A stretch of DNA of 64,000 nucleotides from Eledone cirrhosa (lineage: Eukaryota): the NCBI GenBank assembly GCA_964016885.1, contig OZ024743.1:74400001-74464000 (forward strand), read 5' to 3'. The translations under genes were made by a program, and so were the position numbers. Positions within the stretch are counted from its first letter, which is position 1. Every line of letters begins with the position of its first letter. Positions 17,151 through 62,490 of the stretch are shown in pieces. The notes beneath the pieces are model-generated. The model saw only the letters and a program-made list of their open reading frames with translations, made no database searches and had not been told where the DNA came from.

Positions 17151-17196
17151 TCATACTTTTATCTTTATCACCCTCTGCTTCCCTTTCTTTTTCATT

Positions 17197-18062: not shown

Positions 18063-18421
18063 TCAATTTCTTTCATTCCTTCCATCTTATTATTTTCTTT
18101 ATTTATTATTTATTTTTCTTCAGTAATTAAATGTTCATTTTTTCCTATCACGAAAACACCCATAGACGTACATACACTCGTATGTAGACACGTACATTCT
18201 AATATACATGATGATGATGGCCGCAACTCGATGTAGAGTAATGCCATCGCTTGATACCTAAGCATGTGTATCACGGACGTGGCCTTTTAGTCCAGCTAGG
18301 GACATGCCTGTGGCCAGCAATACTATTCATCACAAAAAAGGTCACATAACAAGCGATGCCTGTGAGGAAAGACTTTGCATGAGGTCAATCTCACTCTCTG
18401 GACATCGAATGTATTTACATC

Positions 18422-18457
<36 letters not shown>

Positions 18458-20235: not shown

Positions 20236-20416
20236 TATTAATAAAAGTTCGGAGGCCATATTCAGTTGAGTCAGGTTTATTTATCTTTTTAGAAAACTGT
20301 TTATCTTAGGTTTTGCCGTCTGAAGAGCTCGGGCTATCATGACTGATAGTCCTCATTGAAATATGTTTTCAATAAACCTGAATCAATTGAATATAGCCGC
20401 CGATCTTTTATTAATA
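20236..20416. mobile_element. Inverted-repeat PLE-end element (arms 20236-20282 / 20371-20416) with partial HHR core
   Basis: ~46-bp inverted repeat. Spacer has CTGAAGA-GCTC-GGGCTATCA-tgac-TGATAGTCC-TCATT-GAAA, but stem I is not evident. Confidence 0.6.
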
Positions 20417-21331: not shown

Positions 21332-21664
<333 letters not shown>

Positions 21665-21731: not shown

Positions 21732-22988
<1,257 letters not shown>

Positions 22989-22993
<5 letters not shown>

Positions 22994-23351
22994 GTGAGGT
23001 TTTTTTTTTTTTTTACAAAATGAAAAATAACCGGGGTGTCCTACACGAGTGAAAGTATAAAGAAAAAGAGATGAAATCGAAAATGCAACTGAAGTCTTAT
23101 TTTTAAAAAAAATATATATATTTATTTGGTTCCTTTACCGGTTTCGCAGTTCTTCTGCTTTTCAAAAGGTGAGTTGAGATGGAGGGTCTGTGGTTTTTCT
23201 CACATCAGATGTGAGAAAAACCACAGACCCTCCATCTCAACTCTACTTTTGAAAAGCAGAAGAACTGCGAAACCGGTAAAGGAACCAAATAAATATATAT
23301 ATTTAAAAAAAAAATAAGACTCCAGTTGCATTTTCGATTTCATCTTTTTTT

Positions 23352-23356
<5 letters not shown>
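22989..23356. mobile_element. Spacerless palindromic PLE-end element F3 with two opposed U3-A8 HHRs (23132-23169 minus, 23245-23282 plus)
   Basis: ~150-bp arms meeting at TTTTTCTCACATC-A-GATGTGAGAAAAA. Confidence 0.8.
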
Positions 23357-23436
<80 letters not shown>

Positions 23437-23500
23437 CATATATACATACATACGTACATACATACATACATACATACATACATACATACACATATATATA

Positions 23501-23536
<36 letters not shown>

Positions 23537-23540
<4 letters not shown>

Positions 23541-23772
23541 TAGTATATTTGGCAATATACTGTATGTTCAATTAAAAACATTTAGAAGATCATTCGCTAT
23601 GAGTGAATATGTCACTTACTTAAACTCGGAGATTAAGTAAGTGACATAGTCACTACTTTAAAACTCATAGCGAATGATCTTCTAAATGTTTTTAATTAAA
23701 CATACGGTATATTGCCAAATATACTATACATACATTCATGTATACATCGCTATTTCAGAGCATCAATACTAA

Positions 23773-23829
<57 letters not shown>

Positions 23830-24029
23830 TAACAGATTAAAGTTTAAGCGAAGAATCGCTGCTTTCACCCTTAACGGGATCTTCTGGAACTAACAAAGTC
23901 AATCTGTAAACGCAGAAGTGGATATTTCAAAAAACGTTGCAACCAGAGGAAGACAGGAAGACGATACTTTGGTTCGTGGAAACGTTCGCTGGCAAAGAAC
24001 GGGAAAAAAGTCTTCAAATTTATTATTAT

Positions 24030-24098
<69 letters not shown>

Positions 24099-24522
24099 CA
24101 TATATACATACATACATACATACATACATACATACATACATACATACATACACACATACACACATACACACATACATACATACATACATACATACATACA
24201 TACATACATACATACATACATACATACATACATACATACATACATACATACACATATATATATCTATATATATATATATATATATATGTCTAGTATATTT
24301 GGCAATATACTGTATGTTCAATTAAAAACATTTAGAAGACCATTCGCTATGAGTGAATATGTCACTTACTTAAACTCGGAGATTAAGTAAGTGACATAGT
24401 CACTACTTTAAAACTCATAGCGAATGATCTTCTAAATGTGTTTAATTAAACATACGGTATATTGCTAAATATACTATACATACATTCATGTATACATCGC
24501 TATTTCAGAGCATCAATACTAA

Positions 24523-24561
<39 letters not shown>

Positions 24562-24763
24562 TAACAGATTAAAGTTTAAGCAAAGAATCGCTGCTTTCAC
24601 CCTTAACGGGATCTTCTGAAACTAACAAAGTCAATCTGTAAACGCAGAAGTGGATATTTCAAAAAACGTTGCAACCAGAGGAAGACAGGAAGACGATACT
24701 TTGGTTCGTGGAAACGTTCGCTGGCAAAGAACGGGAAAAAGTCTTCAAATTTATTATTATTAC
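23537..24763. repeat. Tandem duplication (offset ~750 bp) of a palindrome (23537-23730) plus an F2 PLE end (23822-24033)
   Basis: 23537-24033 is nearly identical to 24287-24763 apart from microsatellite lengths. Confidence 0.9.
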
Positions 24764-24787
<24 letters not shown>

Positions 24788-24794
<7 letters not shown>

Positions 24795-25485
24795 GTGAGG
24801 TTTTTTTTTACAAAATGAAAAATAACCGAGGTGTCCTACACGAGTGAAAGTATAAAGAAAAAGAGATGAAATCGAAAATGCAACTGAAGTCTTATTTTTA
24901 AAAAAAATATATATATTTATTTGGTTCCTTTACCGGTTTCGCAGTTCTTCTGCTTTTCAAAAGGTGAGTTGAGATGGAGGGTCTGTGGTTTTTCTCACAT
25001 CTGGTTGGTCTCTGAATGTTACTTGTTATATATGGAAAAAGTGGCTCGAAATTCCAGGTTTTTCGAGAAGTAATTTGATTGGTTTGTCAATAACTATAAT
25101 AAATTTCGCGCCAGTTCGCTTTACAATAGTTCTTCAAATAAGAGAGGGGGGGGGGGGGTTGTCACAGGTTGTTTTTTCATATATGAGTGTTTGAATTTCT
25201 TTTTACTTGAAAAAAGGAGGCTCACGAAGGCTTTTTTTTGGTTGGTTATAAATGAAATTTGGCTGTCACGTGAACAAGTTTTTATTACATTTTTGCGCCC
25301 TTATTTGGAAAACTATTCTGTAGTCTTTATAGTGAATGTTATGACAATGGAGAGATAGTGGTCAAGAGAAAAGGGATTGGGAGAAATGTTCTGGTTCAGT
25401 GAATATGGCCAGCTCGCCGGGGTGTCAGAGTTCAGATTTTCTATTGAGACTGAAGATATGTATGTTTATTTGTGTGCTTGTGTGT

Positions 25486-25524
<39 letters not shown>

Positions 25525-26625
25525 TATTGGAAGAGGATTCTATTAGTAGAGATGGGGGAGGGAGTTGTGTGTGTGTGTATATGGGTGTTATGTGTGTGTG
25601 TGCGAGTATGTTAAGATGGAGAGAATATATATTTTGTGTGTGTGTATATATATATGTGTGTAGGAAAGTGGTTCTATTAGTAGAAATGGGGAGGGAGTTG
25701 TAGGTGTGGGGTTGTTATGTGTGTGTATGGGTGTTATGTGTGTGGGTGTATGGTTAGCATGTTAAGATGAAGAGAATATAATATTGTGTGTGTGTGTATG
25801 TGTGTGTGTAGGAAAGTGATTCCTTTAGTAGGAATATTTTTGAATGAACATATTTTCCTTACTTTTTCGTGTTTGCTGTTGTATTGCCAGTGCAAACGTA
25901 TGTTAAGGTTTATTTAGTTCGGGTTTTTATTTTCTAAAGTAGAAGGTGTTATGTGTGTGTGTGTATGTCATATTGTGGTGTTGACATAATGTATATTAAA
26001 CCTTATTTAATGTTGGTCTATATTTTTGAATAAACATATTTTCCTTATTTATTCGCATTTGTTCTGTTGTATTGTTAGCGCAAAGGTAAAATGGGAAGAC
26101 TTGGAATTTGGGTGTCTTATCTCTCCATTGTCATAACATTCACTATAAAGACTACAGAATAGTTTTCCAAATAAGGGCGCAAAAATGTAATAAAAACTTG
26201 TTCACGTGACAGCCAAATTTCATTTATAACCAACCAAAAAAAAGCCTTCGTGAGCCCCCTTTTTTCAAGTAAAAAGAAATTCAAACACTCATATATGAAA
26301 AAACAACATGTGACAACCCCCCCCCCCTCTCTTATTTGAAGAACTATTGTAACGCGAACTGGCGCGAAATTTATTATAATTATTGACAAACCAATCAAAT
26401 TACTTACTTCTCGAAAAACCTGGAATTTCGAGCCACTTTTTTCATATAAAACAAGTAACATTCAGAGACCAACCAGATGTGAGAAAAACCACAGACCCTC
26501 CATCTCAACTCACCTTTTGAAAAGCAGAAGAACTGCGAAACCGGTAAAGGAACCAAATAAATATATATATTTTTTTTTAAAATAAGACTTCAGTTGCATT
26601 TTCGATTTCATCTCTTTTTCTTTAT
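24788..26625. mobile_element. PLE-derived element F3 with ~490-bp inverted arms (24851-25336 / 26117-26625) and a GT-rich decayed interior
   Basis: Arms are near-identical reverse complements. Each carries an HHR: 24927-24964 (-) and 26513-26550 (+). Confidence 0.82.
26513..26550 (+). ncRNA. Minimal type I hammerhead, U3-A8 core variant
   Basis: CCTT-TTGAAAA-GCAG-aagaa-CTGC-GAAA-CCGG-TA-AAGG. All three stems pair. Confidence 0.75.
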
Positions 26626-26809
26626 ATATATATATATATATATATAGCTAAACGACTGCAGATCTTCTCCCAAACCTTTCTCTCGTGTGGTAAACTATTC
26701 GGAAAGTTAATGAAAGTCTAAATCTTATTATAGAAGAACCAGATCCCTTTCTAAAAATTAAACCACTCTTCTCTCCCCACCCCCTCTCTCTCTCCTCACA
26801 TATAAGCAC

Positions 26810-31982: not shown

Positions 31983-32161
31983 AATTTAATATAATATAAA
32001 ATTATGATCAACACTAATGTGTTTTTTTTGCAAATTGACAATAAATTAGCCAGATAGAAATACCTTAATTCAAGTACATAAAGTCCGCCTGTATCGATCT
32101 AAAAGATAATAAATCTATACTTACAGACTTAACATGGCAACTGCCCTGGTATATATATATT

Positions 32162-32369
32162 TATTAAAATAACAGATTAAAGTTTAAGCAAAGAATCGCT
32201 GCTTTCACCCTTAACAGAATCTTCTGAAATTAGTTTTAGAAGATCCCGTTAGGGGTGAAAGCAGTGATTCTTTGTTTAAACTTTAATCTGTTATTTTAGT
32301 AGATATTTGCTCTACGGTTTTTATATATACATGATCCTTATCGAGCCCTTTTCACATTTTAGTCTCCAC

Positions 32370-36467: not shown

Positions 36468-39400
36468 TCTGTCAAACCAACACACCACTCTATATATAAC
36501 ACTGGCAAACCAACACACCTATCTATATAGAACACTGTCAAACCAAAACACCACTCTATATACTACACTGTCAAACCAACATACCTCTCTATATACAACA
36601 CTGTCAAACCAACACACCACTCTATATACTACACTGTCAAACCAACACATCAGTCTATATACAACATTGTCAAACCTGCCACTACACCATTCTATATACA
36701 ACACTGTCAAACCAAGGCACCACTCTATATACTACACTGTCAAACCAACATACCACGCTATATACAACACTGTCCAAACAACACACCACTCTATATACTA
36801 CACTGTCAAACCAACACACCTCTATATATAACACTGTCAAACGAACACACCGCTCTATTTCTACACTGTCAAACCAACACACCACTCTATATACTACACT
36901 GTCAAACCAACACACCTCTCTATATATAACACTGTCAAACCAACAAACCACTCTATATACTACACTGTCAAACCAACACACCTCTCTATATAGAACACTG
37001 TCAAACCAACACACCTCTCTATATATAACACTGTCAAACCAATACACCATTCTATATACAACACTGTCAAACCAACACATCACTCTATATATTACACTGT
37101 CAAACCAACACACCGCTCTATACACTACACCGTCAAAGCAACACACCTCTCTATATACAACACTGTCAAACCAACACACCACTCTATATACAACACTGTC
37201 AAACCAACATACCACTCTATATACTACACTGTCAAACCAACACACCACTGTATATACAACACTGTCAGACCAACACACCTCTCTATATACTACACTGTCA
37301 AACCTACACACATTTCTATATACAACACTGTCAAACCAACACAACACTCTATATACTACACTGTCAAACCAACACACCACTCTATACACTACACTGTCAA
37401 ACCAACACACCAATCTATATACTACACTCTCTAAACCAACACACCACTCTATATGCTACACTGTCAAACCCACACACCACTCTATATACAACACTGTGAA
37501 ACCAACACACCTTTCTATATACACCACTGTCAAACCAATACACCAGTCTATATACTACACTGTCAAATCAACACACCACTCTATATACAACACTGTCAAA
37601 CCAACACACCGCTCTATATACTACATTGTCACACCAAGACACCACTCTATATACTACACTGTCAAACCAACACACCACTCTATATACAACACTTTCAAAC
37701 CAACACACCACTCTATATATTACACTGTCAAACCAACACACCACTCTATACACTACACTGTCAAACCAACACACCTCTCTATATACAATACTGTCAAACC
37801 AACACACCTCTCTATATACTACACTGTCAAACCAACAAACCTTTCTATATACAACACTGTCAAACCAACATACCACTCTATATACTACACTGTCAAACCA
37901 ACACACCTCTCTATATACTACACTGTCAAACCAACAAACCTTTCTATATACAACACTGTCAAACCAACACACCACTCTATATACAACACTGTCAAACCAA
38001 CACACCACTCTATATACTACGCTGTCAAACCAACACACCGCTCTATATACAACACAGGTCAAACGAACACACCGCTCTATATGGACCACTGTAAAACCAA
38101 CACACCAGTCTATATACTACACTGTCAAACCAACACACCACTCTATATACAACACTGTCAAACCAACACACCGCTCTATATATTACACTGTCAAACCAAC
38201 ACACCACTCTATACACTACACTGTCAAACCAACACACCTCTCTATATACAACACTGTCAAACCAACACACCACTCTATATACAACACTGTCAAACCAACA
38301 TACCACTCTATATACTACACTGTCAAACCAACACAACACTCTATATACAACACTGTAAAACCAACACACCTCTCTATATACTACACTGTCAAAACAACAC
38401 ACCTTTCTATATACAACACTGTCAAACCAACACAACACTCTATATACTACACTGTCAAACCAACACACCTCTCTATATACTACACTGTCAAACCCACACA
38501 CCACTCATTAAACAACACTGTGAAACCAACACACCTTTCTATATACACCACTGTCAAACCAACACACCAGTGTATATACTACACTGTCAAACAAACACAC
38601 CACTCTATATACAACACTGTTAAACCAACACACCACTCTAGATACAACACTGTCAAACCAACACACCTCTCTATATACTACACAGTCAAACCAACACACC
38701 TTTCTATATACAACACTGACAAACCAACACAACACTCTATATACTACACTGTGAAACCAACACACCACTCTATATACTACACTGTCAAAACAACACACCA
38801 CTCTATATACTACACACTCAAACCAACACACCACTCTATATGCTTCACTGTCAAACCCACACACCACTCTATATACAACGCTGTGAAACCAACACACCTT
38901 TCTATATACACCACTGTCAAACCAACACTCCAGTCTATATACTACACTGTCAAACCAACACACCTCTCTATATACAACATTGTCAAATCAACACACCTCT
39001 CTATATACAACATTGTCAAACCAACACACTACTCTATATACAACACTGTCAAACCAAAACACCAGTCTATATACAACACTGTCAAACCAACACACCACTC
39101 TATATACTACACTCTCAAACCAACACACCTCTCTATATACAACACTGTCAAACCAACACAACCACTCTATATACTACACTGTCAAACCAACACACCTCTC
39201 TGTATAGAACACTGTCAAACCTACATACCACTCTATATATAACACTGTCAAACCAACATACCACTCTATATGCTACACTGTCAAACCAACATTCCACTCT
39301 ATATACAACACTGTCAAACTAACACACTACTCTATATAAAACACTGTCAAGCAAACATCCCACTCTATATACAACACTCTCAAATCAACACGCCACTCTA

Positions 39401-42400
39401 TATACAACACTGTCAAACCAAGACACCACTCTATATAAAACACTGTCAAACCAACATATCACTCTATATACTACACTTCTCAAACCAACACACCAGTCTA
39501 TATAGAACACTGTCAAACCAAGACACCAGTCTATATACAACACTGTGAAAGCAACACACCAGTCTATATAGAACGCTGTCAAACTAACATACCACTCTAT
39601 ATACAACACTGTCAAACCAACACACCACTCTATATGCTAATCTGTCAAACCAACACACCATTCTATATACTACACTGTCAAACCAACACACCACTCTATA
39701 TACAACACTGTCAAACCAACACACCACTCTATATACTACACTCTCAAACCAACACACCACTCTATATGCTACACTGTCAAACCCACACACCACTCTATAT
39801 ACAACACTGTGAAACCAACACACCTTTCTATATACACCACTGTCAAACCAACACACCAGTCTATATACTACACTGTCAAACCAAAACACCACTCTATATA
39901 CAACACTGTCAAACCAACACACCTCTCTATATACTACACTGTCAAACCAACACACCTTTCTATATACAACACTGTCAAACCAACACACCACTCTATATAC
40001 TACACTGTCAAACCAACACACCACTCTATATACTACACTGTCAAACCAACACACCACTCTATATACTACACTGTCAAACCAACACACCTCCCTATATATA
40101 ACACTGTCAAACGAACAAACCACTCTATCTACTACACTGTCAAACCAACACACCTCTCTATATATAACACTGTCAAACGAACACACCACTCTATATACTA
40201 CACTGTCAAACCAACACACCACTCTATATACTACACTGTCAAACCAAACACCACTCTATATACTACACTGTCAAACCAACACACCTCTCTATATACAACA
40301 CTGTCAAACCAACACACCCCTCTATATACAACACTGTCAAACCAACACACCACTCTATATACGACACTGTCAAACCAACACACCACTCTATATACTACAC
40401 TTTCACACCAACACACCACTCTATATACAACACTGTCAAACCAACACACCAGTCTATATACAACATTGTCAACCCAACACACCACTCTATATACTACACT
40501 GTCAAACCAACACACCTCTCAATATACTAAACTGTCAAACCAACACACCTCTCTATATACTACAATGTCAAACCAACACACCACTCTATACACTACACTG
40601 TCAAACCAACACACCACTCTATATACTACACTGTCAAACCAACACACCACTCTATACACTACACTGTCAAACCAATACACTACTCTATATACGACACTGT
40701 CAAACCAACACACCTCTCTATATAGAACACTGTCAAACCCACACACCACTCTATATACGACACTGTCAAACCAACACACCACTCTATATACAAGAATGTC
40801 AAACCAACACACCTTTCTATATACAACACTGTCAAACCAAGACACCACTCTATATACTACACTCTCAAACCAACACACCACTCTATATGCTACACTGTCA
40901 ACCCAACACAGCACTCTATATACTACACTGTCAAACCAACACACCACTCTATATACAACACTGTCAAACCAACACACCACTCTATATATACAACACTGTC
41001 AAACCAATACACCACTCTATATACTACACTGTCAAACCAACACACCACTCTATATACTACACTGTCAAACCAACACACCACTCTATATACTACACTGTCA
41101 AACCTACACACCACTCTATATACAACACTGTCAAACCAACACACCCCTCTATATACAACACTGTCAAACCAACACACCACTCTATATACTACACTGTCAA
41201 ACCAACACACTTCTCTATATACGACACTGTCAAACCAACACACCACTCTATATACTACACTCTCAAACCAACACACCACTCTATATACAACACTGTCAAA
41301 CCAACGCACCAGTCTATATACAACATTGTCAACCCAACATACCACTCTATATACTACACTGTCAAACCAACACACCACTCTATATACTACACTGTCAAAC
41401 CAACACACATCTCTATATATAACACTGTCAAACGAACAAACCACTCTATCTACTACACTGTCAAACCAACACACCTCTCTATATATAACACTGTCAAACA
41501 AACACACCACTCTATATACTACACTGTCAAACCAACACACCACTCTATATACTACACTGTCAAACCAAACACCACTCTATATACTACACTGTCAAACCAA
41601 CACACCTCTCAAAATACAACACTGTCAAACCAACACACCCCTCTATATACAACACTGTCAAACTAACACACCACTCTATATACGACACTGTCAAACCAAC
41701 ACACCACTCTATATACTACACTATCACAGCAACACACCACTCTATATACAACACTGTCAAACCAACACACCAGTCTATATACAACATTGTCAACCCAACA
41801 CACCACTCTATATACTACACTGTCAAACCAACACACCTCTCTATATACTAAACTGTCAAACCAACACACCTCTCTATATACTACAATGTCAAACCAACAC
41901 ACCACTCTATACACTACACTGTCAAACCAACACACCACTCTATATACTACACTGTCAAACCAACACACCACTCTATACACTACACTGTCAAACCAATACA
42001 CTACTCTATATACGACACTGTCAAACCAACACACCTCTCTATATAGAACACTGTCAAACCCACACACCACTCTATATACTACACTGTCGAACCAACACAC
42101 CACTCTATATACAAGAATGTCAAACCAACACACCTTTCTATATACAACACTGTCAAACCAAGACACCACTCTATATACTACACTCTCAAACCAACACACC
42201 ACTCTATATGCTACACTGTCAACCCAACACACCACTCTATATACTACACTGTCAAACCAACACACCACTCTATATACAACACTGTCAAACCAACACACTA
42301 CTCTATATATACAACACTGTCAAACCAATACACCACTCTATATACTACACTGTCAAACCAACACACCACTCTATATACTACACTGTCAAACCAACACACC

Positions 42401-44402
42401 ACTCTATATACTACACTGTCAAACCTACACACCACTCTATATACAACACTGTCAAACCAACACACCCCTCTATATACAACACTGTCAAACCAACACACCA
42501 CTCTATATACTACACTGTCAAACCAACACACTTCTCTATATACGACACTGTCAAACCAACACACCACTCTATATACTACACTCTCAAACCAACACACCAC
42601 TCTATATACAACACTGTCAAACAACGCACCAGTCTATATACAACATTGTCAACCCAACATACCACTCTATATACTACACTGTCAAACCAACACACCACTC
42701 TATATACTACACTGTCAAACCAACACACATCTCTATATATAACACTGTCAAACGAACAAACCACTCTATCTACTACACTGTCAAACCAACACACCTCTCT
42801 ATATATAACACTGTCAAACAAACACACCACTCTATATACTACACTGTCAAACCAACACACCACTCTATATACTACACTGTCAAACCAAACACCACTCTAT
42901 ATACTACACTGTCAAACCAACACACCTCTCAAAATACAACACTGTCAAACCAACACACCCCTCTATATACAACACTGTCAAACTAACACACCACTCTATA
43001 TACGACACTGTCAAACCAACACACCACTCTATATACTACACTATCACACCAACACACCACTCTATATACAACACTGTCAAACCAACACACCAGTCTATAT
43101 ACAACATTGTCAACCCAACACACCACTCTATATACTACACTGTCAAACCAACACACCTCTCTATATACTAAACTGTCAAACCAACACACCTCTCTATATA
43201 CTACAATGTCAAACCAACACACCACTCTATACACTACACTGTCAAACCAACACACCACTCTATATACTACACTGTCAAACCAACACACCACTCTATACAT
43301 TACACTGTCAAACCAATACACTACTCTATATACGACATTGTCAAACCAACACACCTCTCTATATAGAACACTGTCAAACCCACACACCACTCTATATACT
43401 ACACTGTCGAACCAACACACCACTCTATATACAAGAATGTCAAACCAACACACCTTTCTATATACAACACTGTCAAACCAAGACACCACTCTATATACTA
43501 CACTCTCAAACCAACACACCACTCTATATGCTACACTGTCAACCCAACACACCACTCTATATACTACACTGTCAAACCAACACACCACTCTATATACAAC
43601 ACTGTCAAACCAACACACCACTCTATATATACAACACTGTCAAACCAATACACCACTCTATATACTACACTGTCAAACCAACACACCACTCTATATACTA
43701 CACTGTCAAACCAACACACCACTCTATATACTACACTGTCAAACTTACACACCACTCTATATACTACACTGTCAAACCAATACACCTCTCTATATACAAC
43801 ACTGTCAAACCAACACCGCTCTATATACAACACTGTCAAACCAACACACCACTCTATATACTACACTGTCAAACCAACACACTTCTCTATATACTACACT
43901 CTCAAACCAACACACCACTCTATATACAACACTGTCAAACCAACGCACCAGTCTATATACAACATTGTCAACCCAACATACCACTCTATATACTACACTG
44001 TCAAACCAACACACCTCTCTATATACTACACTGTCAAACCAATACGCTACTCTATATACAACACTGTCAAACCAACACACCTCTCTATATAGAACACTGT
44101 CAAACCCACACACCACTCTATATACTACACTGTCAAACCAACACACCACTCTATATACAAAAATGTCAAACCAACACACCTTTCTATATACAACACTGTC
44201 AAACCAAGACACCACTCTATATACTACACTCTCAAACCAACACACCACTCTATATGCTACACTGTCAACCCAACACACCACTCTATATACTACACTGTCA
44301 AACCAACACACCACTCTATATACAACACTGTCAAACCAACACACCACTCTATATACAACACTGTCAAACCAACACACCACTCTATATACAACACTGTCAA
44401 CA
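36468..44402. repeat. 33-bp satellite, ~240 monomers, with ~1320-bp higher-order repeat in the 3' half
   Basis: Unit ACACTGTCAAACCAACACACCACTCTATATACT. Diagnostic variants recur at 1320-bp spacing (ORF starts 41663/42983 and 41787/43107). Confidence 0.97.
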
Positions 44403-44621: not shown

Positions 44622-44953
44622 TAACCAAATGTTTAACAAGGTTCATTGATTAATCAGTGAATATAGTTTTACAATAAATTAGAAGCACTCAACAAAAAGG
44701 TTTTCTAATAAATATAGACATTCATGTGATCAAACATATTTTATTATATATATTTCAGAGGTACTGGGCCGTTTCTTCAGTACGTCCTCTTCAGATAAAA
44801 TAAATTGATGTCTGACATACCTCAACTGTGCTGATGGTTCAATTCCAGTTGAGGTATGTCAAACATCAATTTATTTTATCTGATGAAACGGCTCAGTACC
44901 TCTGAAATATATATAATAAAATATATTTGATTACATGAATGTCTATATTTATT
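44622..44953. mobile_element. Palindromic F1 PLE-end element (palindrome 44707-44953)
   Basis: ~120-bp arms with a ~17-bp spacer. The right arm has a 14-bp deletion between two CTGA(A/T)GA repeats. Confidence 0.82.
44739..44800 (-). ncRNA. Type I hammerhead ribozyme (F1), intact core
   Basis: Reverse complement: TTTTAT-CTGAAGA-GGA-C-GTACTG-aagaaacggcc-CAGTAC-C-TCT-GAAA-TATATA-TA-ATAAAA. Confidence 0.85.
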
Positions 44954-47831: not shown

Positions 47832-48660
47832 TTTCTTTATTTGCCACAGGGACACAAAAGATGGGGACAAATACAAATACAAAGTGGGGAGTTTACATAT
47901 AAGCGTATAAAAATAGAACCAATAAATAAATAACAAATAACAATTGAAATCCTCAATAGGGGGAGGGAGAGGCGTTACACATGGGTTGTACACACCCCGA
48001 AAAAATGTACAACCCTCATCTCCAGGAGCACGAAGAGCGAGCGCTCCTTTCCTCTCTTCCTCTTTATATTCTTTCCACATTCACCCACCTTTCGTAAAAT
48101 TTGCTTGGGAGCAGCTCCTCTTTCTCCACTCTGATTCTTCTTCTAAAGTGATATTTGAAGAAGCGAACCAGTTGTTCGCCGGAGAGAAAGGTGTCTGCCC
48201 TCAGCCCTTTCAACCTCGTCCACCATATAACCTCTTTCACCATAGCCATTACACAGAGGAAAACCGCGTCTCCTTCGTTTTTGAAGGAGGGTGGCGGTTT
48301 GATCGTAATAATGGACTCGATGGCCAACCGGATTTGTTCCACCCGCGACAGTAGCCATTCTGCGTAGCTCCACGGGTCGGTAACGTCCGGACAGTGTTCG
48401 AATGTGTGCGCGACGGTTTCCTCGTCTCGCACGCATCTCGGACAGATCTATTTCGAGGGATCTCTGCTCGGGCGCCCGTGTCTGTAGAGCTTGTCTCGAA
48501 CAGGTAGAGCTCCTCGGTAGCACTGCAAAGCCAGGGACTTTTGGAAGTTGTCCATCGGTCCCGGGCGGCATGTCCTACCGAACAGACTGGCCAGTTCGTC
48601 TTCCTCTACGCCTAGAGTTCCCCTGAGAGTGTCGTCGCACTTGCTGCGCACCAACCCTAA
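47832..48660 (-). mobile_element. Tx1/L1 LINE 3' fragment (diverged copy)
   Basis: ETVAHTFEHCPDVTDPW...FFKYHFRRRIRVE is homologous to 15400-16240. Ends AATAAAGAAA then (TCTA)n. Confidence 0.9.
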
Positions 48661-49158: not shown

Positions 49159-49359
49159 CTACATACACACATATATGTGCGTGTATATGTTTGTGTGTTT
49201 GTACACCCCACAAATATATTCACACACTATTGCAACCCCGCCCCCCCCCCCACAGTAAGGTCACTGTTTCCGATGTTGAACGGAAAATTTATATTTCCAC
49301 CCACACACATTAAACTATTATTTACACCACCACTGCACCACACCCCCACCTCAGTACAA

Positions 49360-51868
49360 GACCACACCACCACAACAACATCACACCACCACCACAACAT
49401 CACACCGCCACCATCACACTACCACCACACCACCACTACACCACCACCAGCATCACCACACCACCACCACAACATCACACCAGCACCACACCACCACCAC
49501 AACATCAAACTACCACCACCACACCACCACCACAACACCACACCACCACCACCATCACACCATTACTACAATATCACACCACCACCACACCTCCACACCA
49601 CCACCACAACATCACACCACCACCACACCACCACACCACCACCACCATCACACCATTACCACAATATCACACCACCACCACACCTCCACACCACCACACC
49701 ACCACCACACCTCCACACCACCACACCACCACCACACCTCCACACCACCACCACACCACCACACCACCACCACACCACCACCACCACACTACCACCTCAC
49801 CACCACCACACCACCACACCACCACCACAACATCACACCAACACCACACCACAACACCACCACCACCATCACACTACCACCACACCACCACCAGAGCACC
49901 ACACCACCACCACACCACCACCACAACATCACACCGCCACCATCACACTACCACCACACCACAATATCACACCACCACCATCACACTACCACCACAATAT
50001 CACACCACCACCACACCACCACCACACTAGTACACCCCCACCACATCATCACACCTCCACCACACCATATCATCACACGACCACCACCCCACCGACACCA
50101 CCACAACACCACCACATCCCTACAACACACCACCACCACACCACCACACCACATCAGCACCACACGAGACCATTACACCATTACACCACATCACCACCAC
50201 ACCACACCATTACACTACACCACCACACCACCACACCACACCATTACACTACACCACCACACCACCACACCACACCATTACACCACATCACCACCACACC
50301 ACCACACACCACACCACACCATTACACCACATCACCACCACACCACACCATTACACTACACCACCACACCACCACACCACACCATTACACCACATCACCA
50401 CCACACCACACCATTACACTACACCACCACACCACCACACCACACCATTACACTACACCACCACACCACCACACCACACCATTACACCACATCACCACAA
50501 CACCACACCATTACACTACACCACCACACCACCACACCACACCATTACACTACACCACCACACCACCACACACCACACCACACCATTACACCACCACACC
50601 ACCACACCACACCATTACACTACACCACCACACCACCACACCACACCATTACACCACATCACCACCACACCACACCATTACACTACACCACCACACCACC
50701 ACACCACACCATTACACTACACCACCACACCACCACACCACACCATTACACCACATCACCACCACACCACACCATTACACTACACCACCACACCACCACA
50801 CCACACCATTACACCACATCACCACCACACCACCACACACCACACCACACCATTACACTACACCACCACACCACCACACCACACCATTACACCACATCAC
50901 CACCACACCACACCATTACACTACACCACCACACCACCACACCACACCATTACACCACATCACCACCACACCACACCATTACACTACACCACCACACCAC
51001 CACACCACACCATTACACTACACCACCACACCACCACACCACACCATTACACCACATCACCACCACACCACACCATTACACTACACCACCACACCACCAC
51101 ACCACACCATTACACTACACCACCACACCACCACACCACACCATTACACCACATCACCACCACACCACACCATTACACTACACCACCACACCACCACACC
51201 ACACCATTACACTACACCACCACACCACCACACCACCACACCACACCATTACACTACACCACATCACCACCACACCACACCATTACACCACATCACCACC
51301 ACACCACACCACACCATTAAACCACATCACCACAACACCACACCATTACACTACACCACCACACCACCACACCACACCATTACACTACACCACCACACCA
51401 CCACACCACACCATTACACCACATCACCACCACACCACACCATTACACTACACCACCACACCACCACACCACACCATTACACTACACCACCACACCACCA
51501 CACACCACACCACACCATTACACCACCACACCACCACACCACACCATTACACTACACCACATCACCACCACACCACACCATTACACTACACCACCACACC
51601 ACCACACACCACACCACACCATTACACCACCACACCACACCATTACACTACACCACCACACCACCACACACCACACCACACCATTACACCACCACACCAC
51701 CACACCACACCATTACACTACACCACCACACCACCACACCACACCATTACACCACATCACCACCACACCACACCACACCATTACACCACATCACCACAAC
51801 ACCACACCATTACACTACACCACCACACCACCACACCACACCATTACACCACATCACCACCACACCAT
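49360..51868. repeat. (CAC)-based low-complexity satellite (CACCACACCATTACACTACAC-type units)
   Basis: Read directly. Confidence 0.93.
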
Positions 51869-52781: not shown

Positions 52782-53485
52782 GATATTAAATAAATGGAAA
52801 CTATATTTATAAAACCATATTTATTTCATTATACATATTTTCAAGGACACCAAATTAAATTATGGTGTGCTTTCATCAGATAAAATATAATATAGAGCAG
52901 TTTTATAAATAAATATTGACATACCCTTAAAGAATGCAACCATTACTGTTGGAAGCTCCCGGATAGTGGAGTTATATCTTTAATTATATTATTAGGTAAG
53001 TTAGTATTGGATATTTTTAAATAAGCCGTTGGGTTACGGAGAAAGAGAAAGAGAGAGAAAGAGCAGAACAACAGAGAGAAAAAGATAGAGAGAGAGGAGA
53101 CAGAGAAAGGAGATAGAACGAAATCGTAACATTTGAGATGAAATGAATAAATAAAATCATTTTAAAATATCCAATACTAACTTACCTAATAATATAATTA
53201 AAGTTATAACTCCACTATCCGGGAGCTTCCAACAGTAATGGTTGCATTCTTTAAGGGTATGTCACTATTTATTTATAAAACTGCTCTATATTATATTTTA
53301 TCTGATGAAAGCACACCATAATTTAACTTGGTGTCCTTGAAATATGTATAATGAAATAAATATGGTTTTATAAATATAGTTTCCATTTGTTAATATCTTA
53401 TTTTTACTCCAAATATTTGTTGAGTGCTTTATATCAGTTATAAAAATATTTGCTTGTTGTATCCCAACAATTTAAATAGAACTTT

Positions 53486-53519: not shown

Positions 53520-54609
53520 GTGTGCTTCCATAGAAATAGAAATAATGGTTGGGAATATCGAATAAAATACCGATTGAAAGGGATATAATGGATAGGGACT
53601 CCTGGAACTAAAACCCCGATTTCCTCCGAAGTTGGGGAACACACATTTATAGTTTACAATTTACCAGATGCTTCTTAAATTAATAGCTTGCTAATATATA
53701 CATACATACATGTATGCATGTATTCATACATACATGTATTTATATATACACACATACATGCATACATAATGCATACATGCATGCACACATGCACACATAC
53801 ATATATGCATACAAACATATGCACATTCATACATGGATGTATATATACATACACACACATGCATATATGTATTCTACAAACATACATACATACATACATA
53901 CATACATACATACATACATACATACATACATACATACATACATACATGATGGCTGCCACCTCGTTATCGAGTATGGCCATTGCAGGACATACCATTATTA
54001 ATTAATTCTATCATGCAATGCCTGTGCGTGAAGATATTTTTTTAAATGAGGAAAGACTGTGCACTGAGCCAATCCCACTCTCTAAGCGACTGTACCTATA
54101 ACCCGAAAAGAAGAAAAGATCAACAACATCGGTAACTACTGAGCCGCAGGTTCTATGTCGGAGTTATCCCAGTTTCCTGAGTTGCCTTCTCATAGAAGAA
54201 TGCCCTGACAAAGGCTAGGGGTCTTTCACTCCCAGTGGTTTAACATATATACGTTCATACAACTTTTAAAATTCTCGTTTGATATGAAGACAAATACAGT
54301 TTAGGGAAAAAATATAATATAGACGAATTCTTAGAAAAGGAAATAGAACTAGTCTTGTAAGAGTCATTATTTATATAAATTTGCACACTTATATACTTAC
54401 ATACATACATTCATTCATATATTTATATATATAAAATATATATATGTTCATTATCTAATGTAGAAATGGTTTCTATAGGACTAGAACAGTTCTAGTCTTG
54501 TATAAGCCATATTTAATCGCCATTTAACTCTGGATCTACACACATACACACGCACACACACACACACACAAAAAAAAACACACACACACACTCACACACA
54601 CACACACAC

Positions 54610-54660
<51 letters not shown>

Positions 54661-54661
54661 G

Positions 54662-54698
<37 letters not shown>

Positions 54699-54853
54699 TG
54701 TTATAATTTGGGAGTGTCATGTTACCAATAAGAAACACACGCACCAGTTGCTTTCACTTCAATTTATTATAAATTTTATAAATTTTATAAATATAAATTT
54801 TATAAATTTCCGGTTTTTGGTTGGTTCCAAAACCGGATGGTTGTTCATATATT

Positions 54854-54896
54854 GTCAAAGTTCTTTCGTCACACATTCTGTGACCTCTTCAGTGAC
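54854..54896 (-). ncRNA. Minimal type I hammerhead ribozyme in PLE 3' UTR
   Basis: Reverse complement: GTCA-CTGAAGA-G-GTCACA-gaatg-TGTGAC-GAAA-GAAC-TT-TGAC. Confidence 0.82.
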
Positions 54897-55080
54897 TGGG
54901 GATTCTCTTCTTTGTTTTGTGGCTCTTTTTCGTTCTGTCCTACGCCATCTTGTTTTTGTGTGTGTTGCGTGTTTAGTTTGCGCATGTGTTACATCCGGGT
55001 GTCTGTGTGTGTTTTTATTTGTTTATTTACATGTTACTAGTTAGTTGTTTGTTCTATGTGTGTGCGTTTTCATTTTGTCC

Positions 55081-55815
55081 TCAATTATAAGTTGTGATGT
55101 TGCTATTCCTATCATGTTTTCTATTTAATTTTGGTTGGAGTTCATTTATGTTTATAGCCTCTGTGATTTGTCTAAGCATTGCGTCTTTTCTGTGTGTAGA
55201 TTCTTTTTTTTATCTCTATGTTCTCTAATTTTCCCTTGTGTTCTATTTTAGCATATTGGTGGAGTATTGATGAGTCTTTTCTATCTTGGAGTTCTCGCCA
55301 GTGTTCATTTAATCGTTCTCCTATGCTACGAGCTGTCTCACCTATGTACATTATATTCTTATTTTTACATTGTCCCTCAGTACATCTTATGCTATATACT
55401 ATGTTTCTAGTTTTACAGTTAATATGGGGAGTTAGCTTACAGATTATGCATTTCCTATCTCTACAGGGAGTTCTTTGAAAAGGTATTACTAATTAGTGTT
55501 TTTATGGAGTATGACTAATTAGTGTTTTTATGGATGTACCTGGTCTTTCCACTATCTTAATATTTAGTTTAAGTTTATCTAGGGCCCTTCTAAATTTGTA
55601 AGCTAGTTCACCTGTAGGGGTTGCATTGATGAACATTACACTCTGGTATTTATTGCTATCATACCATGAGTTTATTTTATTAACCTTATTCTTAGTTGTT
55701 TCTATTCTATTCAAAATTTTGCTCCTATACAAGGGGCAGGTCCCATTTGTATCATTATTTATCATTTTTTCCCATTTGATTCTGGCTCCTCTATATATTC
55801 TGATTTTATCTTTCT
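55081..55815 (-). pseudogene. PLE RT-linker / GIY-YIG endonuclease C-terminal fragment (stop plus frameshift)
   Basis: CPLYRSK...FINATPTGELA...KIVERPGTSIK...CRDRKCIIC...CKTRNIVYSIRC...MYIGETARSIGERLNEH...DAMLRQITEAININELQPKLNRK. Confidence 0.9.
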
Positions 55816-55941
55816 GGTAAAATTTATATTTATAAAATTTATAAAATTTATAATAAATTGAAGTGAAAGCAATGGTGCGTGTGTTTCTTATTGGCAACAT
55901 GACCCTCTCAAAGTATAACAATATATATATATATATATATA

Positions 55942-56008
<67 letters not shown>

Positions 56009-56517
56009 CCAGAGTTAAATGGGGATTAAATATGGCTTATACAAGACTAGAACTGTTCTAATCCTATAGAAAGCATTTCTACATTAGATAATGAACATAT
56101 ATATATTTTATATATATAAATATATGAATGAATGTATGTATGTATGTATATATGTGTGCAAATTTATATAAATAATGACTCTTACAAGACTAGTTCTATT
56201 TCCTTTTCTAAGAATTCATCTATATTATATTTTTTCCCTAAACTGTATTTGTCTTCATATCAAACGAGAATTTTAAAAGTTGTATGAACGTATATATGTT
56301 AAACCACTGGGAGTGAAAGACCCCTAGCCTTTGTCAGGGCATTCTTCTAGGAGAAGGCAACTCAGAAAACTGGGATAACTCCGACATAAAAGTATATATA
56401 TATATATATATATAAGTTAAAAATAAAAAACAAAAACAATAACGATGAGTGCAGTACAAAGTGTTAGTATTAGGTTCACGTTTGAGTGGGGGGTTCATAT
56501 GTATATATAAAAATATA

Positions 56518-56577
<60 letters not shown>

Positions 56578-56584
<7 letters not shown>

Positions 56585-57188
56585 TGTTATACTTGGGGAG
56601 GGTCATATTTGCGTAATATTGCCAGAATTAATAACAGAACAACAACAACACCCAAACAAACAACACTGACCTAAGAGAAGTATAAATAAGTAAATAAATA
56701 AAATAAAATAAAATAAAATAAGATAAATAAATACACACACTAGTCACCCAGCAGACACAAGACTATACACACTAATCACACAGCACACACAACACTGTAC
56801 ACACACGCAAACGCATGCGCAAAGAAGACAAAATAAAATAAACAAACAAGCAAATAAATAAATAAATATATAGACAGACTGATTAAAAAAAAATGGCGTA
56901 GACATACAACACAACAGGAGGAAAAAATATAACACCACTGACGATGTTGCAGATGTGCAACGAAAGATTTATGTAAATTATGTAAACTATATATATGTAT
57001 TTGTGTCTATATTGTATCTGTATTATTTTTGACCGTCGGTCAGTCAATGGCAACATTGAGGACCGAGCAAGTTAGATCGCAGATATAAAAGACAGCGTGA
57101 AGCGAAAACCAACCAAACAGTGAGTGTGTTCTGTTATTAATTCTGGCAATACTACGCAAATATGACCCTCCCCAAGTATAACAATATT
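56578..57188 (+). mobile_element. Non-coding relative of the 54.7-55.9 kb PLE with inverted termini (56578-56642 / 57125-57188)
   Basis: Termini ATATTGTTATACTTGGGGAGGGTCAT resemble those at 54697 and 55925. Contains an HHR. Confidence 0.75.
56936..56973 (+). ncRNA. Minimal type I hammerhead motif
   Basis: CA-CTGACGA-T-GTTGCA-gatg-TGCAAC-GAAA-GATT-TA-TG. Stem II covaries with 54854-54896; stem I is short. Confidence 0.7.
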
Positions 57189-57484: not shown

Positions 57485-57534
<50 letters not shown>

Positions 57535-57536
<2 letters not shown>

Positions 57537-57604
57537 TTAATATAGATGAGATTCTACAGGACTAGACAGTTCTAGTCCTGTAGAATCTCATCTATATTAA
57601 AACT
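57535..57604. repeat. Near-perfect ~32-bp-arm palindrome next to (TA)n
   Basis: GTTTTAATATAGATGAGATTCTACAGGACTAGA-cagt-TCTAGTCCTGTAGAATCTCATCTATATTAAAAC. The core hairpin is shared with 54475-54503. Confidence 0.85.
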
Positions 57605-59177: not shown

Positions 59178-59234
59178 GCAGACCACCATTCTGTTGTACT
59201 GATGTTTGGACAATATCCATGAGCTTGGCTGGTA

Positions 59235-60900
59235 AAGTCTTTTAAATCAGGATTTGGACACCATGGCGTACTCAAGTAGAGAATTTACGGATGTAGGAGG
59301 TTTATCCGGAGTTTCTTGGAGAAAAAGAGAGCGAGACCAGTTGAGGGAAAATAATTGTGCCGTAATATTGAGATGCGAGTTTAATTTTTGTTGTGGGTGG
59401 ATAGCTCACAGCAGCGTTGGAGAGACTTGAGTTTGAGCTTTTTTAGTCGACCCCAATAGTCAAGGCCTGTCATGCCATCTAGCATTTTTGTGATTGACCT
59501 TTAGGGTGCTTCAATTTTGATAATACTGTGTTTCGTGTGGGAAGACCACAGTGGACAACAGTATTCAAGGTGGGGTCGGGCAAAAGTAGAGAAGAGAAGG
59601 ATAACGTTATGGATATCTCTCGACTGGAAGGTTCTGAGAATCCAGGAACATATTCTGTGGGCCATGTCAACTTTGCTGTTTATATGAGTGGCCCAGCTTA
59701 TGTTGTTTTCGACAATTACTCCCAGATCTTTTATGTTGTTGGATGCCACGAGAGTTTCACATGGGGTAAGAGAATATGGTTGGTTCAGTGCATCCTCTTT
59801 TACAAAGTGGATTAGTTCGAATTTATTCTCGCATATTGTATTTTTTCCACCCATTGGATAACAGCCAGTACGTCTGATTGAAGGCATGTCCGGTCACCCA
59901 CTCCATTGATGACCTCTGGAGCTTGGAATCATCTGCAAATATTCTTATGTTGCTGGGCATGTTGACGTCCATAATGGCATTGATATAAATAATGAAAAAA
60001 AGTGGGCCCAACACAGTGGCTTGTGGGACGCCACTACTGACTTTGGCTAGGCTTGATTTTATTTCTTCAACTACAACATGTTGGGCTCTGTTTGACAGGA
60101 AACAATTAATCCAATGCAGTAACTTTCCAGTGACACCAATTTTGGATAGGTTTTTCAGTAGGATGTTGTGATCAACCCTATCAACGGCCTTGCTGAAATC
60201 AAGGTAGATGACATCAGTTTTGGAGCCCTCTCCCAAAGCTCTTAAAATGTCATCAAAGTGACGCAGGAATTGCATTAGGCAGTCCCTTCCATTACGGAAC
60301 CCATGTTGGTTGGAAATCAGCAGATTGTTTCTTTCAAGAAAGTGAGTTATTCATAATCTCACCGCCCTCTAAAATACCTTAATGATATGAGAAGTGAGTG
60401 AGATAGGACAGTAATTCCCTGCAAGGGACTTGTTTCTCTTTTTAAAAACTGGGACAACAGACTAGTTAAAAATCTGGGACAATAGAAAGTTTTCCGGTGT
60501 ATAGCCAGCGTCCAGTGAGTTCCTCCACAGATTAGCAAGAGGAGATGCAGGTTGGTGTCGACACACCGTCTGGACACTAGCAGGGAACCTATCGGGGCCT
60601 ACTGTTGAATTGCCTTTAATTTCGTTACCGCTAAGACACCAGGGGCGTCAAACGTTATATCCGACATAGTGTGATGGGGATTAACATCACTGATACAGCC
60701 CAGATCGGCCATACTAGGATTGCTGGAAACAGAGCAGTATTGTTTCTGCAGTATCTCACCCATGGTTTTCGCATTGTCTTGGCGTGTGTCATTTTCAGAC
60801 AGTGACCTTGTGTTTTTTCGCAAATGAAAAGAACACTTTAGGATTGAGTTTGATTTTCTCAGTAATCCATTTCTCCTCATCTGGTTTTTGGTTATTGATG
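59235..60900 (-). mobile_element. CR1-like LINE RT region, pseudogenised
   Basis: NQHGFRNGKDC, DVIYLDFSKAVDRVDH, SGVPQATVLGPLFFIIYIN, FADDSKL, IKDLGV, RPHLEYCCPLWS. Confidence 0.92.
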
Positions 60901-61300
60901 ATGGTCTTCATGCATTGCTAGAGATTATATATTTTTTTTATTATTCAAGCAGTGCAATAGCAGTCGAATGTGTGTATTTATGGAAGGGTTGACACTTTGT
61001 ACATTGAGTAGAAATGTTGAAGCTAGAGTAGTGACTGGTTTTGACTGTTGCAGGGGCTTGTTTTGTGTTTGCATGTTAGTGACAGCAATGGGCAGTTGGT
61101 GTACAGGGGTAATAGCAGAAGTTGGTGTTGCGTGATAGCTAGAAGATTTTTTGTTGTTTTTATTTTTCTGGTGATAGTTTTTCTGTTTGAGGGGATTCTG
61201 CACTCAGTTTTATTAATAGATCTTGATGGGGTATATTTTGCACATATATTTGTGACAGTGTCTACAAATATCTTCCAGGATGTTTAAATGTTGGTAGTGA

Positions 61301-61340
<40 letters not shown>

Positions 61341-61411
61341 CGTGTGTCTCTGTGTGTGTGTGGGGGTGTCTGTGGGTCTGTGTGTGTATGTGTGTATATC
61401 TGTGTGTGTGC

Positions 61412-61574
<163 letters not shown>

Positions 61575-61609
61575 TGCGTGTGTAAAAGATCAGTCAACAT
61601 GTGCTAGAT

Positions 61610-62490
61610 CGTTAGTGATTACATCCCAGTTGGCATTATAAAGATCCATGTTATCAACTGGATGGGTTGGAGAGAGGTCATTGGTTTAGTTTACGGCTGA
61701 TGGAATCTCAGGTTACAGAGAACCATGTCATGGTCTGATAGAAGAGTTTTATCCACTGTAATACTATGTTCTACTGTAACATGTGTGGTTACTAAATACT
61801 AGGTCCAGAATGTTTTTCTGTTATCTTGTTGGTGCAAGGACAAGTTGGGACAAGAAAAACTCATTCATAATGTCGAGAAGTGACTCTACTGCTGCTATGT
61901 CAGTGGTTGGGGTAGGACTGCTTGGTTTCAAACTGTTTGTAGACCAATCAACACAGGGTAATTGAAGTCTCTCATCATTAGTATGTTACTAGAATGGCAC
62001 TGTTGTATCAAGCACTTAATTGAAGCATAGTATAGGCCTACTATCAAATTATTGACTTTGTTGTGCACGGTGACTGATTGATAGTAGCCAATTGAGAATG
62101 TGATATTTCCGTCTGCCGTAAAGGAATCATGCAGGAAAATAGCAGTTCCACCCTTCCTTCTGCCGACACGATCCGCGCGGATGGTTTTAAAATTCCTCAC
62201 CTTCACTTCGGCTTTCAAGTGGGAGTTGTCGAAATGGATCTCAGTAAGGATAAAGAATGGATATGGTGTGGATGGTTGCCAAGCCAGTCCTCAACTGGAC
62301 CTGCCATTTTCGTGTATTGATGGAAGGGCTGACACATTGGACATTGAGTAAAAATGTTAAGGCTAGAGTCATGGCTGATTTTGACTGTTGCAAGGGGCTT
62401 GTTGTGTGTTTGTGTGTTAGTGACAGCAATAGGGGGAGTTGGTGCACGGGGGTAATAGCAGAAGTTGGTGTTGTGTGATAGCTAGAAGAT
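61610..62490 (-). mobile_element. CR1-like LINE AP-endonuclease region, pseudogenised
   Basis: FLLNVQCV, LTEIHF, RADRVGRRKGGTAIF, RDFNYP, NILDLVF, SDH motifs. Confidence 0.82.

What the first reader, a model, noticed from the sequence alone, without database searches (positions are those of the whole stretch)
54156..56387. PLE insertion with inverted duplication of ~550 bp of its own 3' flank
Seen: symmetric structure [A]-(CA)n-(TA)n-[PLE 3' end...GIY-YIG...inverted 3' end]-(TA)n-(TG)n-[A inverted]. The inverted repeat runs past the element terminus through the microsatellites into ~390 bp of flank. Inference: the inverted 5' repeat formed by a template switch that copied on into flanking DNA, or from a 3'-transduced transcript. 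This would explain how PLEs generate palindromes and multiply or invert microsatellites.
Basis: partly seen in the sequence, partly recalled or inferred. Interest (0 to 1): 0.7.

Follow-up and report, generated by a model that had tools for sequence, protein, structure and literature searches.

The report
Retrotransposon fold-back that copied its flank
A truncated Penelope-type retrotransposon has an inverted end repeat that runs about half a kilobase into the neighbouring host DNA, most likely because the new DNA copy folded back on itself during insertion, which hints at how these elements make their characteristic inverted repeats.

Summary
Observation confirmed. A 2.24-kb palindrome (arms 54151-54802 and 55818-56391, 1015-bp spacer) holds a 5'-truncated, decayed Neptune/Nematis-type Penelope-like element (PLE) on the minus strand, with a Cys linker, GIY-YIG domain and hammerhead motif. 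The inverted arm copies 104 bp of element end, then (TA)n, (CA)n and 387 bp of flank. Protein homology stops at the inner arm boundary. Both arms carry their own substitutions (about 2-5%), so an artefact is unlikely. The right arm ends beside a (TA)11 run that starts with a possible target-site duplication; the left arm's end shows no junction. Best reading (0.6): the cDNA 3' end folded back at insertion, DNA-templated synthesis ran through the junction into the flank, and the end then joined the other half of the TA target. A later template switch (0.17) or RNA-borne transduction (0.15) is not excluded, because no empty site, genome or reads were available. It is 1 of 14 local palindromes examined; the other 13 stop at or inside the element. 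Similar fold-backs are published for R2 and L1; my searches found none for PLEs. New variant of a known kind.

The parts
54151..54537 (+). Segment A, inferred native host flank and template of the inverted copy; contains decayed pieces related to the palindrome at 57534-57603
54538..54698 (.). Compound microsatellite (CA)n-(TA)n, interrupted; the (TA)n part is the inferred left half of the insertion target
54655..54681 (+). ATAAATG(TA)10, left copy of the candidate target-site duplication (weak, noticed after the fact)
54699..55817 (-). 5'-truncated Neptune/Nematis-type Penelope-like element, about 1.12 kb, 3' terminus joined to (TA)n at 54699
54699..54802 (-). Element 3'-terminal 104 bp, the left inner arm; terminus resembles the element at 56585-57183
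54854..54896 (-). Minimal type I hammerhead-like motif in the 3' UTR; not included in the inverted arm
   Evidence: the only strict-descriptor hit in the window, 0 in 20 shuffles; stems I and II form but fold z is only -0.69; no Rfam hammerhead hit here
55081..55816 (-). Decayed ORF: region downstream of the RT core, CX4CxxC linker (55439-55465), GIY-YIG (YIGET at 55334-55348), C-terminal motif; broken by a 26-bp tandem duplication (55483-55534) and a frame change near the T8 run (55204-55211)
55817..55818 (.). Inner fold-back junction: protein homology starts at 55816, the inverted arm at 55818; its partner position 54802 lies in a quasi-palindromic TTTATAAA repeat
55818..55920 (+). Inverted copy of the element's 3' end (right inner arm)
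55921..56004 (.). Inverted microsatellite copy (TA)12-(TG)30, shorter and purer than the left block
56005..56391 (-). A', inverted copy of flank A (ends at 56388 if the duplication reading of the junction is right)
56386..56414 (+). ATAAAAG(TA)11, outer junction; inferred right half of the TA target and right copy of the candidate duplication

Best explanation
One insertion event with fold-back (snap-back) synthesis that overran the junction. (1) A Neptune/Nematis-type PLE nicked a (TA)n microsatellite and reverse-transcribed about 1.12 kb from the plus-strand 3' end at about 54698. The anatomy is shown; target-primed reverse transcription (TPRT) is inferred from PLE biology. (2) The cDNA 3' end, at 55817, re-primed on the same cDNA at 54802 through one to a few bases, in an AT-rich quasi-palindrome, looping out 1015 nt (junction shown, priming inferred). 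(3) DNA-templated synthesis, by the PLE RT or by a host polymerase on a resected end, copied 104 nt of cDNA and went on through (TA)n, (CA)n and about 385 nt of the covalently attached host flank (inferred). (4) The extended end joined the other half of the TA target at about 56388 (inferred). The empty site should therefore read A-(CA)n-(TA)n followed directly by the sequence after 56414. Speculative add-on: this copy's primary end has no 'tail', the short extension linked to endonuclease resolution in PLEs, so the hairpin was not cut at the element end and synthesis ran on.
For: Strand polarity fits a single plus-strand product: cDNA 54699-55817, then the complement of the same strand from 54802 back to about 54151. 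Homology to PLE proteins starts at 55816, two bases from the arm boundary. The right outer end is 1 nt from (TA)11, while the left outer end is 303 nt from any (TA)4 or longer run. About 3% of non-run positions lie within 4 nt of a (TA)5 or longer run. GC shows no step across 54151 (0.44-0.50 in the four 50-nt bins from 54050 to 54249). No direct repeat longer than 5 bp links the 54 bp left of the left end with the 55 bp at the right end. The 7-mer before the right TA run is matched within one mismatch by 1 of 551 other TA-run starts, and by 1 of 182 plus-strand internal interruptions; that one lies in the TA run touching the element's 3' end. Outer and inner arm divergence do not differ significantly (9/387 vs 5/104, Fisher p 0.19), as one event predicts. 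Precedents: cDNA snap-back onto cDNA or nearby target DNA in engineered R2 insertions (PMC11371274); self-annealing-primed inverted duplications at L1 sites (10.1101/2024.12.14.628481). The anole PLE initiates RT internally whatever 3' extension the RNA has (PMC11167929).
Against: No empty site, other family copy, or read was available, so 'native flank' is not shown. Homology could not show continuity across 54151. The duplication signal was noticed after the fact, needs one mismatch, and the same bases can be read as arm homology. The general background for such matches is 4.5% per pair (972 of 21408) and 9.7% (352 of 3621) in a looser test. The inverted (TA)12 lacks the AATG interruption that a faithful copy of the left duplication would carry, so a skip or later contraction is needed. 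Inner arms are nominally twice as diverged as outer arms, and all 5 differences lie in the terminal 50 bp (p 0.023, post hoc). The other 13 of 14 local palindromes stop at or inside the element.
Confidence: 0.6

Rival explanations
1. Two steps. A canonical PLE with short inverted ends inserted first. Later a replication or repair template switch, helped by the existing stem and by (TA)n being self-complementary, copied the left flank inverted between the right inner arm and the right TA run.
For: Outer arms 2.3% vs inner arms 4.8% divergence, in the predicted direction. Short-armed inverted PLE ends beside TA runs are the norm in this window. (TA)n offers ready homology for a switch.
Against: The divergence difference is not significant (p 0.19-0.29). 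The innermost 54 bp of the inner arms are identical. It needs a second event that leaves and rejoins at the element/target junction.
Confidence: 0.17
2. RNA-borne flank. A source element elsewhere was transcribed with its flank, either as a sense read-through primed from both target ends, or as an antisense transcript that self-primed. Both A copies then arrived with the insertion, possibly as a multi-copy composite unit.
For: PLEs mobilise non-element DNA between their terminal repeats, and self-priming on antisense or read-through transcripts has been proposed (PMC3846280). The anole PLE extends both target strands from the same RT start sites and shows a faint product attributed to priming at the RNA 3' end (PMC11167929). 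The left insert boundary could lie further out, for example at the TACA array ending at 53947.
Against: No TA run or direct repeat at the left arm end. The main RT start is internal, so read-through sequence is mostly not copied. The candidate duplication brackets 54699-56385, not the whole palindrome.
Confidence: 0.15
3. Assembly or library artefact (fold-back chimeric read, amplification chimera, or inverted haplotype mis-join).
For: PLE tandem and inverted structures are known to trouble assemblies (PMC8557442). The region is rich in microsatellites, and the sequencing technology is unknown.
Against: The arms differ by 13 substitutions and only 1 indel outside the microsatellites. Polarised on related window copies, 4 changes are on the left arm and 2 on the right (6 of 13 could be polarised). 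The inversion ends cleanly and returns to new sequence at a TA run.
Confidence: 0.05
4. A is a common dispersed repeat, and two copies happen to flank the PLE symmetrically.
For: A contains decayed pieces of a palindromic family also seen at 57534-57603.
Against: Homology is continuous from the element arm through both microsatellites to the end of A. No other whole copy in 64 kb (score 729 vs 73 or less).
Confidence: 0.03

Closest known systems
Canonical EN+ PLE insertions with an inverted 5' copy and optional tail (Neptune, Nematis, Penelope/Poseidon, Naiad; PMC8557442, PMC3846280)
   Same: 5' truncation, an inverted copy of the 3' end at the 5' junction, hammerhead motif near the terminus, CX2-5CxxC linker before GIY-YIG, (TA)n target.
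   Different: In the texts read, the inverted copy ends at the element terminus or 30-40 bp from it. Here it continues 471 bp past the terminus into non-element DNA.
R2 PRINT 'snap-back' 5' junctions (PMC11371274)
   Same: The cDNA 3' end primes further synthesis on the cDNA or on nearby target DNA before the 5' junction forms.
   Different: Engineered R2 in human cells, read mostly as junction reads. The passages seen do not describe a single product running from cDNA through the 3' junction into flank. Here: a natural PLE locus whose arms have since diverged.
L1 insertions with local inverted duplication or inversion (10.1101/2024.12.14.628481, PMC11702581)
   Same: Self-annealing through about 2 bp primes synthesis, duplicates target DNA inverted, and the target-site duplication is kept.
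   Different: The two inverted-duplication examples are on the reciprocal end with small hairpins. Here it is the primary RT end, with a 1-kb loop, and cDNA and flank are copied in one tract.
PLE-mediated capture of host DNA in Adineta vaga (PMC3846280)
   Same: Host sequence lies within a PLE-bounded structure.
   Different: There the host DNA lies once, between terminal repeats, and is moved to a new site. Here it is duplicated inverted and lies outside the element termini.

Membership tests
EN+ Penelope-like element | GIY-YIG endonuclease with PLE-type Cys/His (CCHH) residues | tested here: met
   PF01541 E 9e-5; 499 relatives at E<=0.001; C26, C37, H64 and H85 invariant or nearly so in 24 aligned sequences
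EN+ Penelope-like element | Telomerase-related RT in the same ORF | tested here: inconclusive
   RT core is lost by truncation. Six long relatives inspected (of 150) have a YxDD-like motif upstream of the matched region; Pfam found no RT family in 7 of 7 scanned
EN+ Penelope-like element | Hammerhead motif in the terminal region | tested here: met
   Descriptor hit at 54854-54896, 0 in 20 shuffles; not found by Rfam; cleavage not testable
Neptune/Nematis clades | C-terminal EN preceded by a CX2-5CxxC linker | tested here: met
   CX4CxxC before GIY-YIG, EN followed by stop and 3' UTR; motif in 121 of 150 hits; definition from PMC8557442
Neptune/Nematis clades | RT phylogeny separating Neptune from Nematis | not testable with these tools
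Naiad | N-terminal EN and no hammerhead | tested here: not met
   EN is C-terminal and a hammerhead motif is present
Canonical PLE inverted repeat | Inverted copy limited to element sequence (plus or minus tail) | tested here: not met
   Arm runs 471 bp beyond the terminus
Snap-back / fold-back insertion product | Inverted tract templated by the same strand with a short junction homology | tested here: inconclusive
   Polarity fits; at least one shared base at 55818/54802, true length unknown without a family consensus
Snap-back / fold-back insertion product | Duplicated DNA is native to the target site (empty allele) | not testable with these tools
   No eukaryotic genome collection or reads; only indirect support
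3' transduction | Source element elsewhere with the same flank, and target-site duplication around the whole unit | tested here: inconclusive
   No direct repeat over 5 bp at the outer ends; source search impossible beyond the window

The most novel reading that the evidence does not exclude
PLE inverted repeats in general are made by DNA-templated fold-back of the first-strand cDNA and are normally cut or joined at a fixed TA-like site near the element end, which gives the one-sided tail. When the primary end lacks the tail, synthesis overruns into host DNA. Loci like this would then be a countable class that decides between the fold-back, dual-priming and antisense-RNA models, and a recurring source of host-DNA palindromes and inverted microsatellites in TA-rich genomes.
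Probability: 0.25. Interest if true: 0.7.

Novelty: new variant of a known kind. Interest (0 to 1): 0.42.

Why it matters
How PLEs build tandem and inverted structures is stated as open (PMC8557442), and the proposed model uses self-priming on RNA (PMC3846280). An arm that continues into target-site DNA can only be DNA-templated in place, so such loci discriminate between the models. They can be counted in any long-read assembly with an empty-site comparison. As a single decayed locus it has no evident function, and the underlying reaction is already described for R2 and L1.

Tried and rejected
The repeat finder on the whole window was swamped by microsatellites; masked BLAST was used instead. 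Rfam gave 129 sub-threshold matches, mostly microsatellite-driven miRNA hits, none at a gathering score and no hammerhead in this element. Two word-indexed protein searches found no relative; the full HMMER scan did. A scan of prokaryotic genome contigs for stray related loci failed with the alignment and found 0 of 146 candidates with the single protein. Six-frame translation across the left boundary gave no recognisable protein by eye. The first background test for the target-site duplication was dominated by one degenerate array at 32.5-34.1 kb and was redone; both rates are reported. Naiad membership was rejected on domain order. Two papers searched for passages gave nothing relevant. No structure prediction was run, as it does not bear on the question.

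Full report
Observation. Masked self-BLAST gives three nested inverted matches (98%, 97%, 92%). A global alignment joins them into one arm pair, 54151-54802 and 55818-56391, around 1015 bp of unique spacer. The arms contain, from inside out, 104 bp of element end, a TA run, a CA/TG run and 387 bp of segment A. A against A' scores 729, against at most 34 in 200 shuffles and 73 for the best non-overlapping tile of the window. Of 17 inverted HSPs within 6 kb, only this locus has arms that continue across microsatellites.

The element. The minus strand of the spacer encodes a decayed ORF: the region downstream of an RT core, a CX4CxxC linker, a GIY-YIG domain (PF01541, E 9e-5) and its C-terminal motif. 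It is broken by a 26-bp tandem duplication and by a frame change near a T8 run. A full HMMER scan found 499 relatives at E<=0.001. The best, P0001, is 50% identical over 204 positions, and its match begins at 55816, two bases from the start of the inverted arm. Six long relatives inspected carry a YxDD-like motif upstream and the Cys linker before the nuclease. That is the Neptune/Nematis order defined in PMC8557442, not Naiad. A minimal hammerhead motif lies in the 3' UTR at 54854-54896: the only strict hit in the window, none in 20 shuffles, though Rfam missed it and its fold is not unusually stable. So this is a 5'-truncated EN+ PLE whose 3' end meets (TA)n at 54699. The host is not identified. 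The repeat landscape recalls octopus genomes, but that is memory and comes from no call.

Is it an artefact? Outside the microsatellites the arms differ by 13 substitutions and one indel. Six substitutions could be polarised on related window sequences: four are on the left arm and two on the right. Both arms have therefore changed independently, which a fold-back read or amplification chimera would not show. Reads were not available.

Which copy of A is native? The two outer ends differ. The right end is 1 nt from (TA)11; the left end is 303 nt from any TA run of four units or more. The left end shows no GC step and shares no direct repeat over 5 bp with the right end. About 3% of non-run positions are as close to a TA run. 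The right junction reads ATAAAAG(TA)11, and the TA run touching the element's 3' end contains ATAAATG(TA)10 in the same orientation. That is the only match within one mismatch among the 551 other TA-run starts, and among 182 plus-strand internal interruptions. It suggests a target-site duplication around 54699-56385. I noticed it after the fact, and it is weak. General background rates are 972 of 21408 pairs and 352 of 3621, the bases can also be read as arm homology, and the inverted (TA)12 lacks the interruption. Homology could not demonstrate continuity across 54151. On balance the left A is native and the right A' is the copy.

Mechanism. On the plus strand, the inserted DNA reads as cDNA (54699-55817) followed by the complement of that same strand from 54802 back to about 54151. 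One nascent strand explains this: primed at the TA target, folded back on itself, extended through the insertion junction into the attached flank, then joined to the other half of the target. The junction positions and polarity are shown; priming, polymerase and timing are inferred. One event predicts equal arm ages, and 9/387 versus 5/104 is not a significant difference (p 0.19). The nominal excess in the inner arms keeps a two-step rival alive (0.17). Transduction (0.15) is disfavoured because the anole PLE starts RT internally whatever 3' extension the RNA has (PMC11167929). The same paper reports extension from both target strands and a faint 3'-end product, and PMC3846280 proposes self-priming on antisense or read-through RNA, so it is not excluded.

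Context. I examined 14 local palindromes picked by hand, leaving out dispersed inverted repeat pairs and cross-matches between copies. In the other 13, one arm ends within 20 nt of a TA run. In 8 of them the other side runs 58-91 nt to the next run, and this extension is visibly shared between related copies (11862/32157, 23056/24851, 44707/52782). This resembles the one-sided PLE tail (30-40 bp in PMC8557442). Only three of the 13 show a hammerhead core, so their PLE origin is inferred. At the finding's locus both inner arms end at the same position, with no such extension. The tail is ascribed to endonuclease resolution and was reported as needed for endonuclease recognition (seen only as cited in PMC11167929). 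A tail-less primary end might therefore let fold-back synthesis overrun. This is speculation; whether this family has a tail is untested.

Comparison with what is known. Inverted 5' copies are canonical for PLEs, and their formation is called unresolved. Snap-back onto cDNA or nearby target DNA is described for engineered R2 (PMC11371274). Self-annealing-primed inverted duplications of target DNA, with the target-site duplication kept, are described for L1, on the reciprocal end (10.1101/2024.12.14.628481; earlier version PMC11702581). Nine searches found no report of a PLE inverted arm extending into host flank. The library lacks most subscription papers, and I did not read the older PLE reviews.

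What I saw of each paper. PMC3846280: parts 1-4 of 5. PMC11167929: parts 1-3 of 4. PMC8557442: passages and section 6. PMC11702581: passages and section 7. PMC11371274, the 2026 L1 preprint, PMC13282606, PMC12602865 and 10.64898/2026.07.22.740005: passages only. No supplements were read; those of the L1 preprint and the R2 paper could hold closer precedents.

Verdict. A real, aged, flank-duplicating fold-back at a Neptune/Nematis-type PLE insertion. It works like R2 snap-back or L1 end remodelling, and departs from the canonical PLE inverted repeat in passing the element end. New variant of a known kind. Interest 0.42: one locus with an unproven empty site, but a cheap genome-wide test of an open mechanistic question.

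Noticed in passing
window 56581-57187: Second element with a related terminus, 61-bp inverted arms and a hammerhead core at 56938 (+); arms stop at the terminus, with 58 nt to the next TA run on the 3' side.
   Followed up: partly
window 52782-53478, 44707-44953, 2463-2757: Related AT-rich palindromes; CTGATGA...GAAA cores at 53302(+), 52879(-) and 44880(+); one arm meets (TA)n, the other carries an 80-90 nt extension.
   Followed up: partly
window 22988-26626: Composite: a near zero-loop palindrome (23056-23358), a roughly 750-bp tandem duplication including microsatellites (23359-24032 / 24033-24788), and a longer palindrome of the same family (24851-26626); both palindromes end their short arm at the same TATA site.
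   Followed up: partly
window 11560-11618, 11862-11994, 20239-20413, 21491-21563, 23538-23747, 32157-32306, 57534-57603: Short, nearly loop-less palindromes abutting TA runs; several share family-specific one-sided extensions.
   Followed up: partly
window 54318-54362 and 54455-54515: Two decayed pieces inside segment A related to the palindrome at 57534-57603.
   Followed up: partly
window 53948-54245: A block richer in GC than the adjoining AT-rich DNA, spanning the left arm end; by recall only it resembles an RTE-type LINE untranslated region; weak match to 18347-18422.
   Followed up: partly
window 36469-44400, 17190-18063, 49324-51867: 33-bp satellite (about 240 copies), 31-bp array (28 copies) and a degenerate CAC-rich array weakly similar to the 33-bp satellite.
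   Followed up: no
window 59200-62300 and 47833-48600: Decayed LINE-like reverse transcriptase fragments on the minus strand, judged from translations; the second has a related copy at 15446-16239.
   Followed up: no
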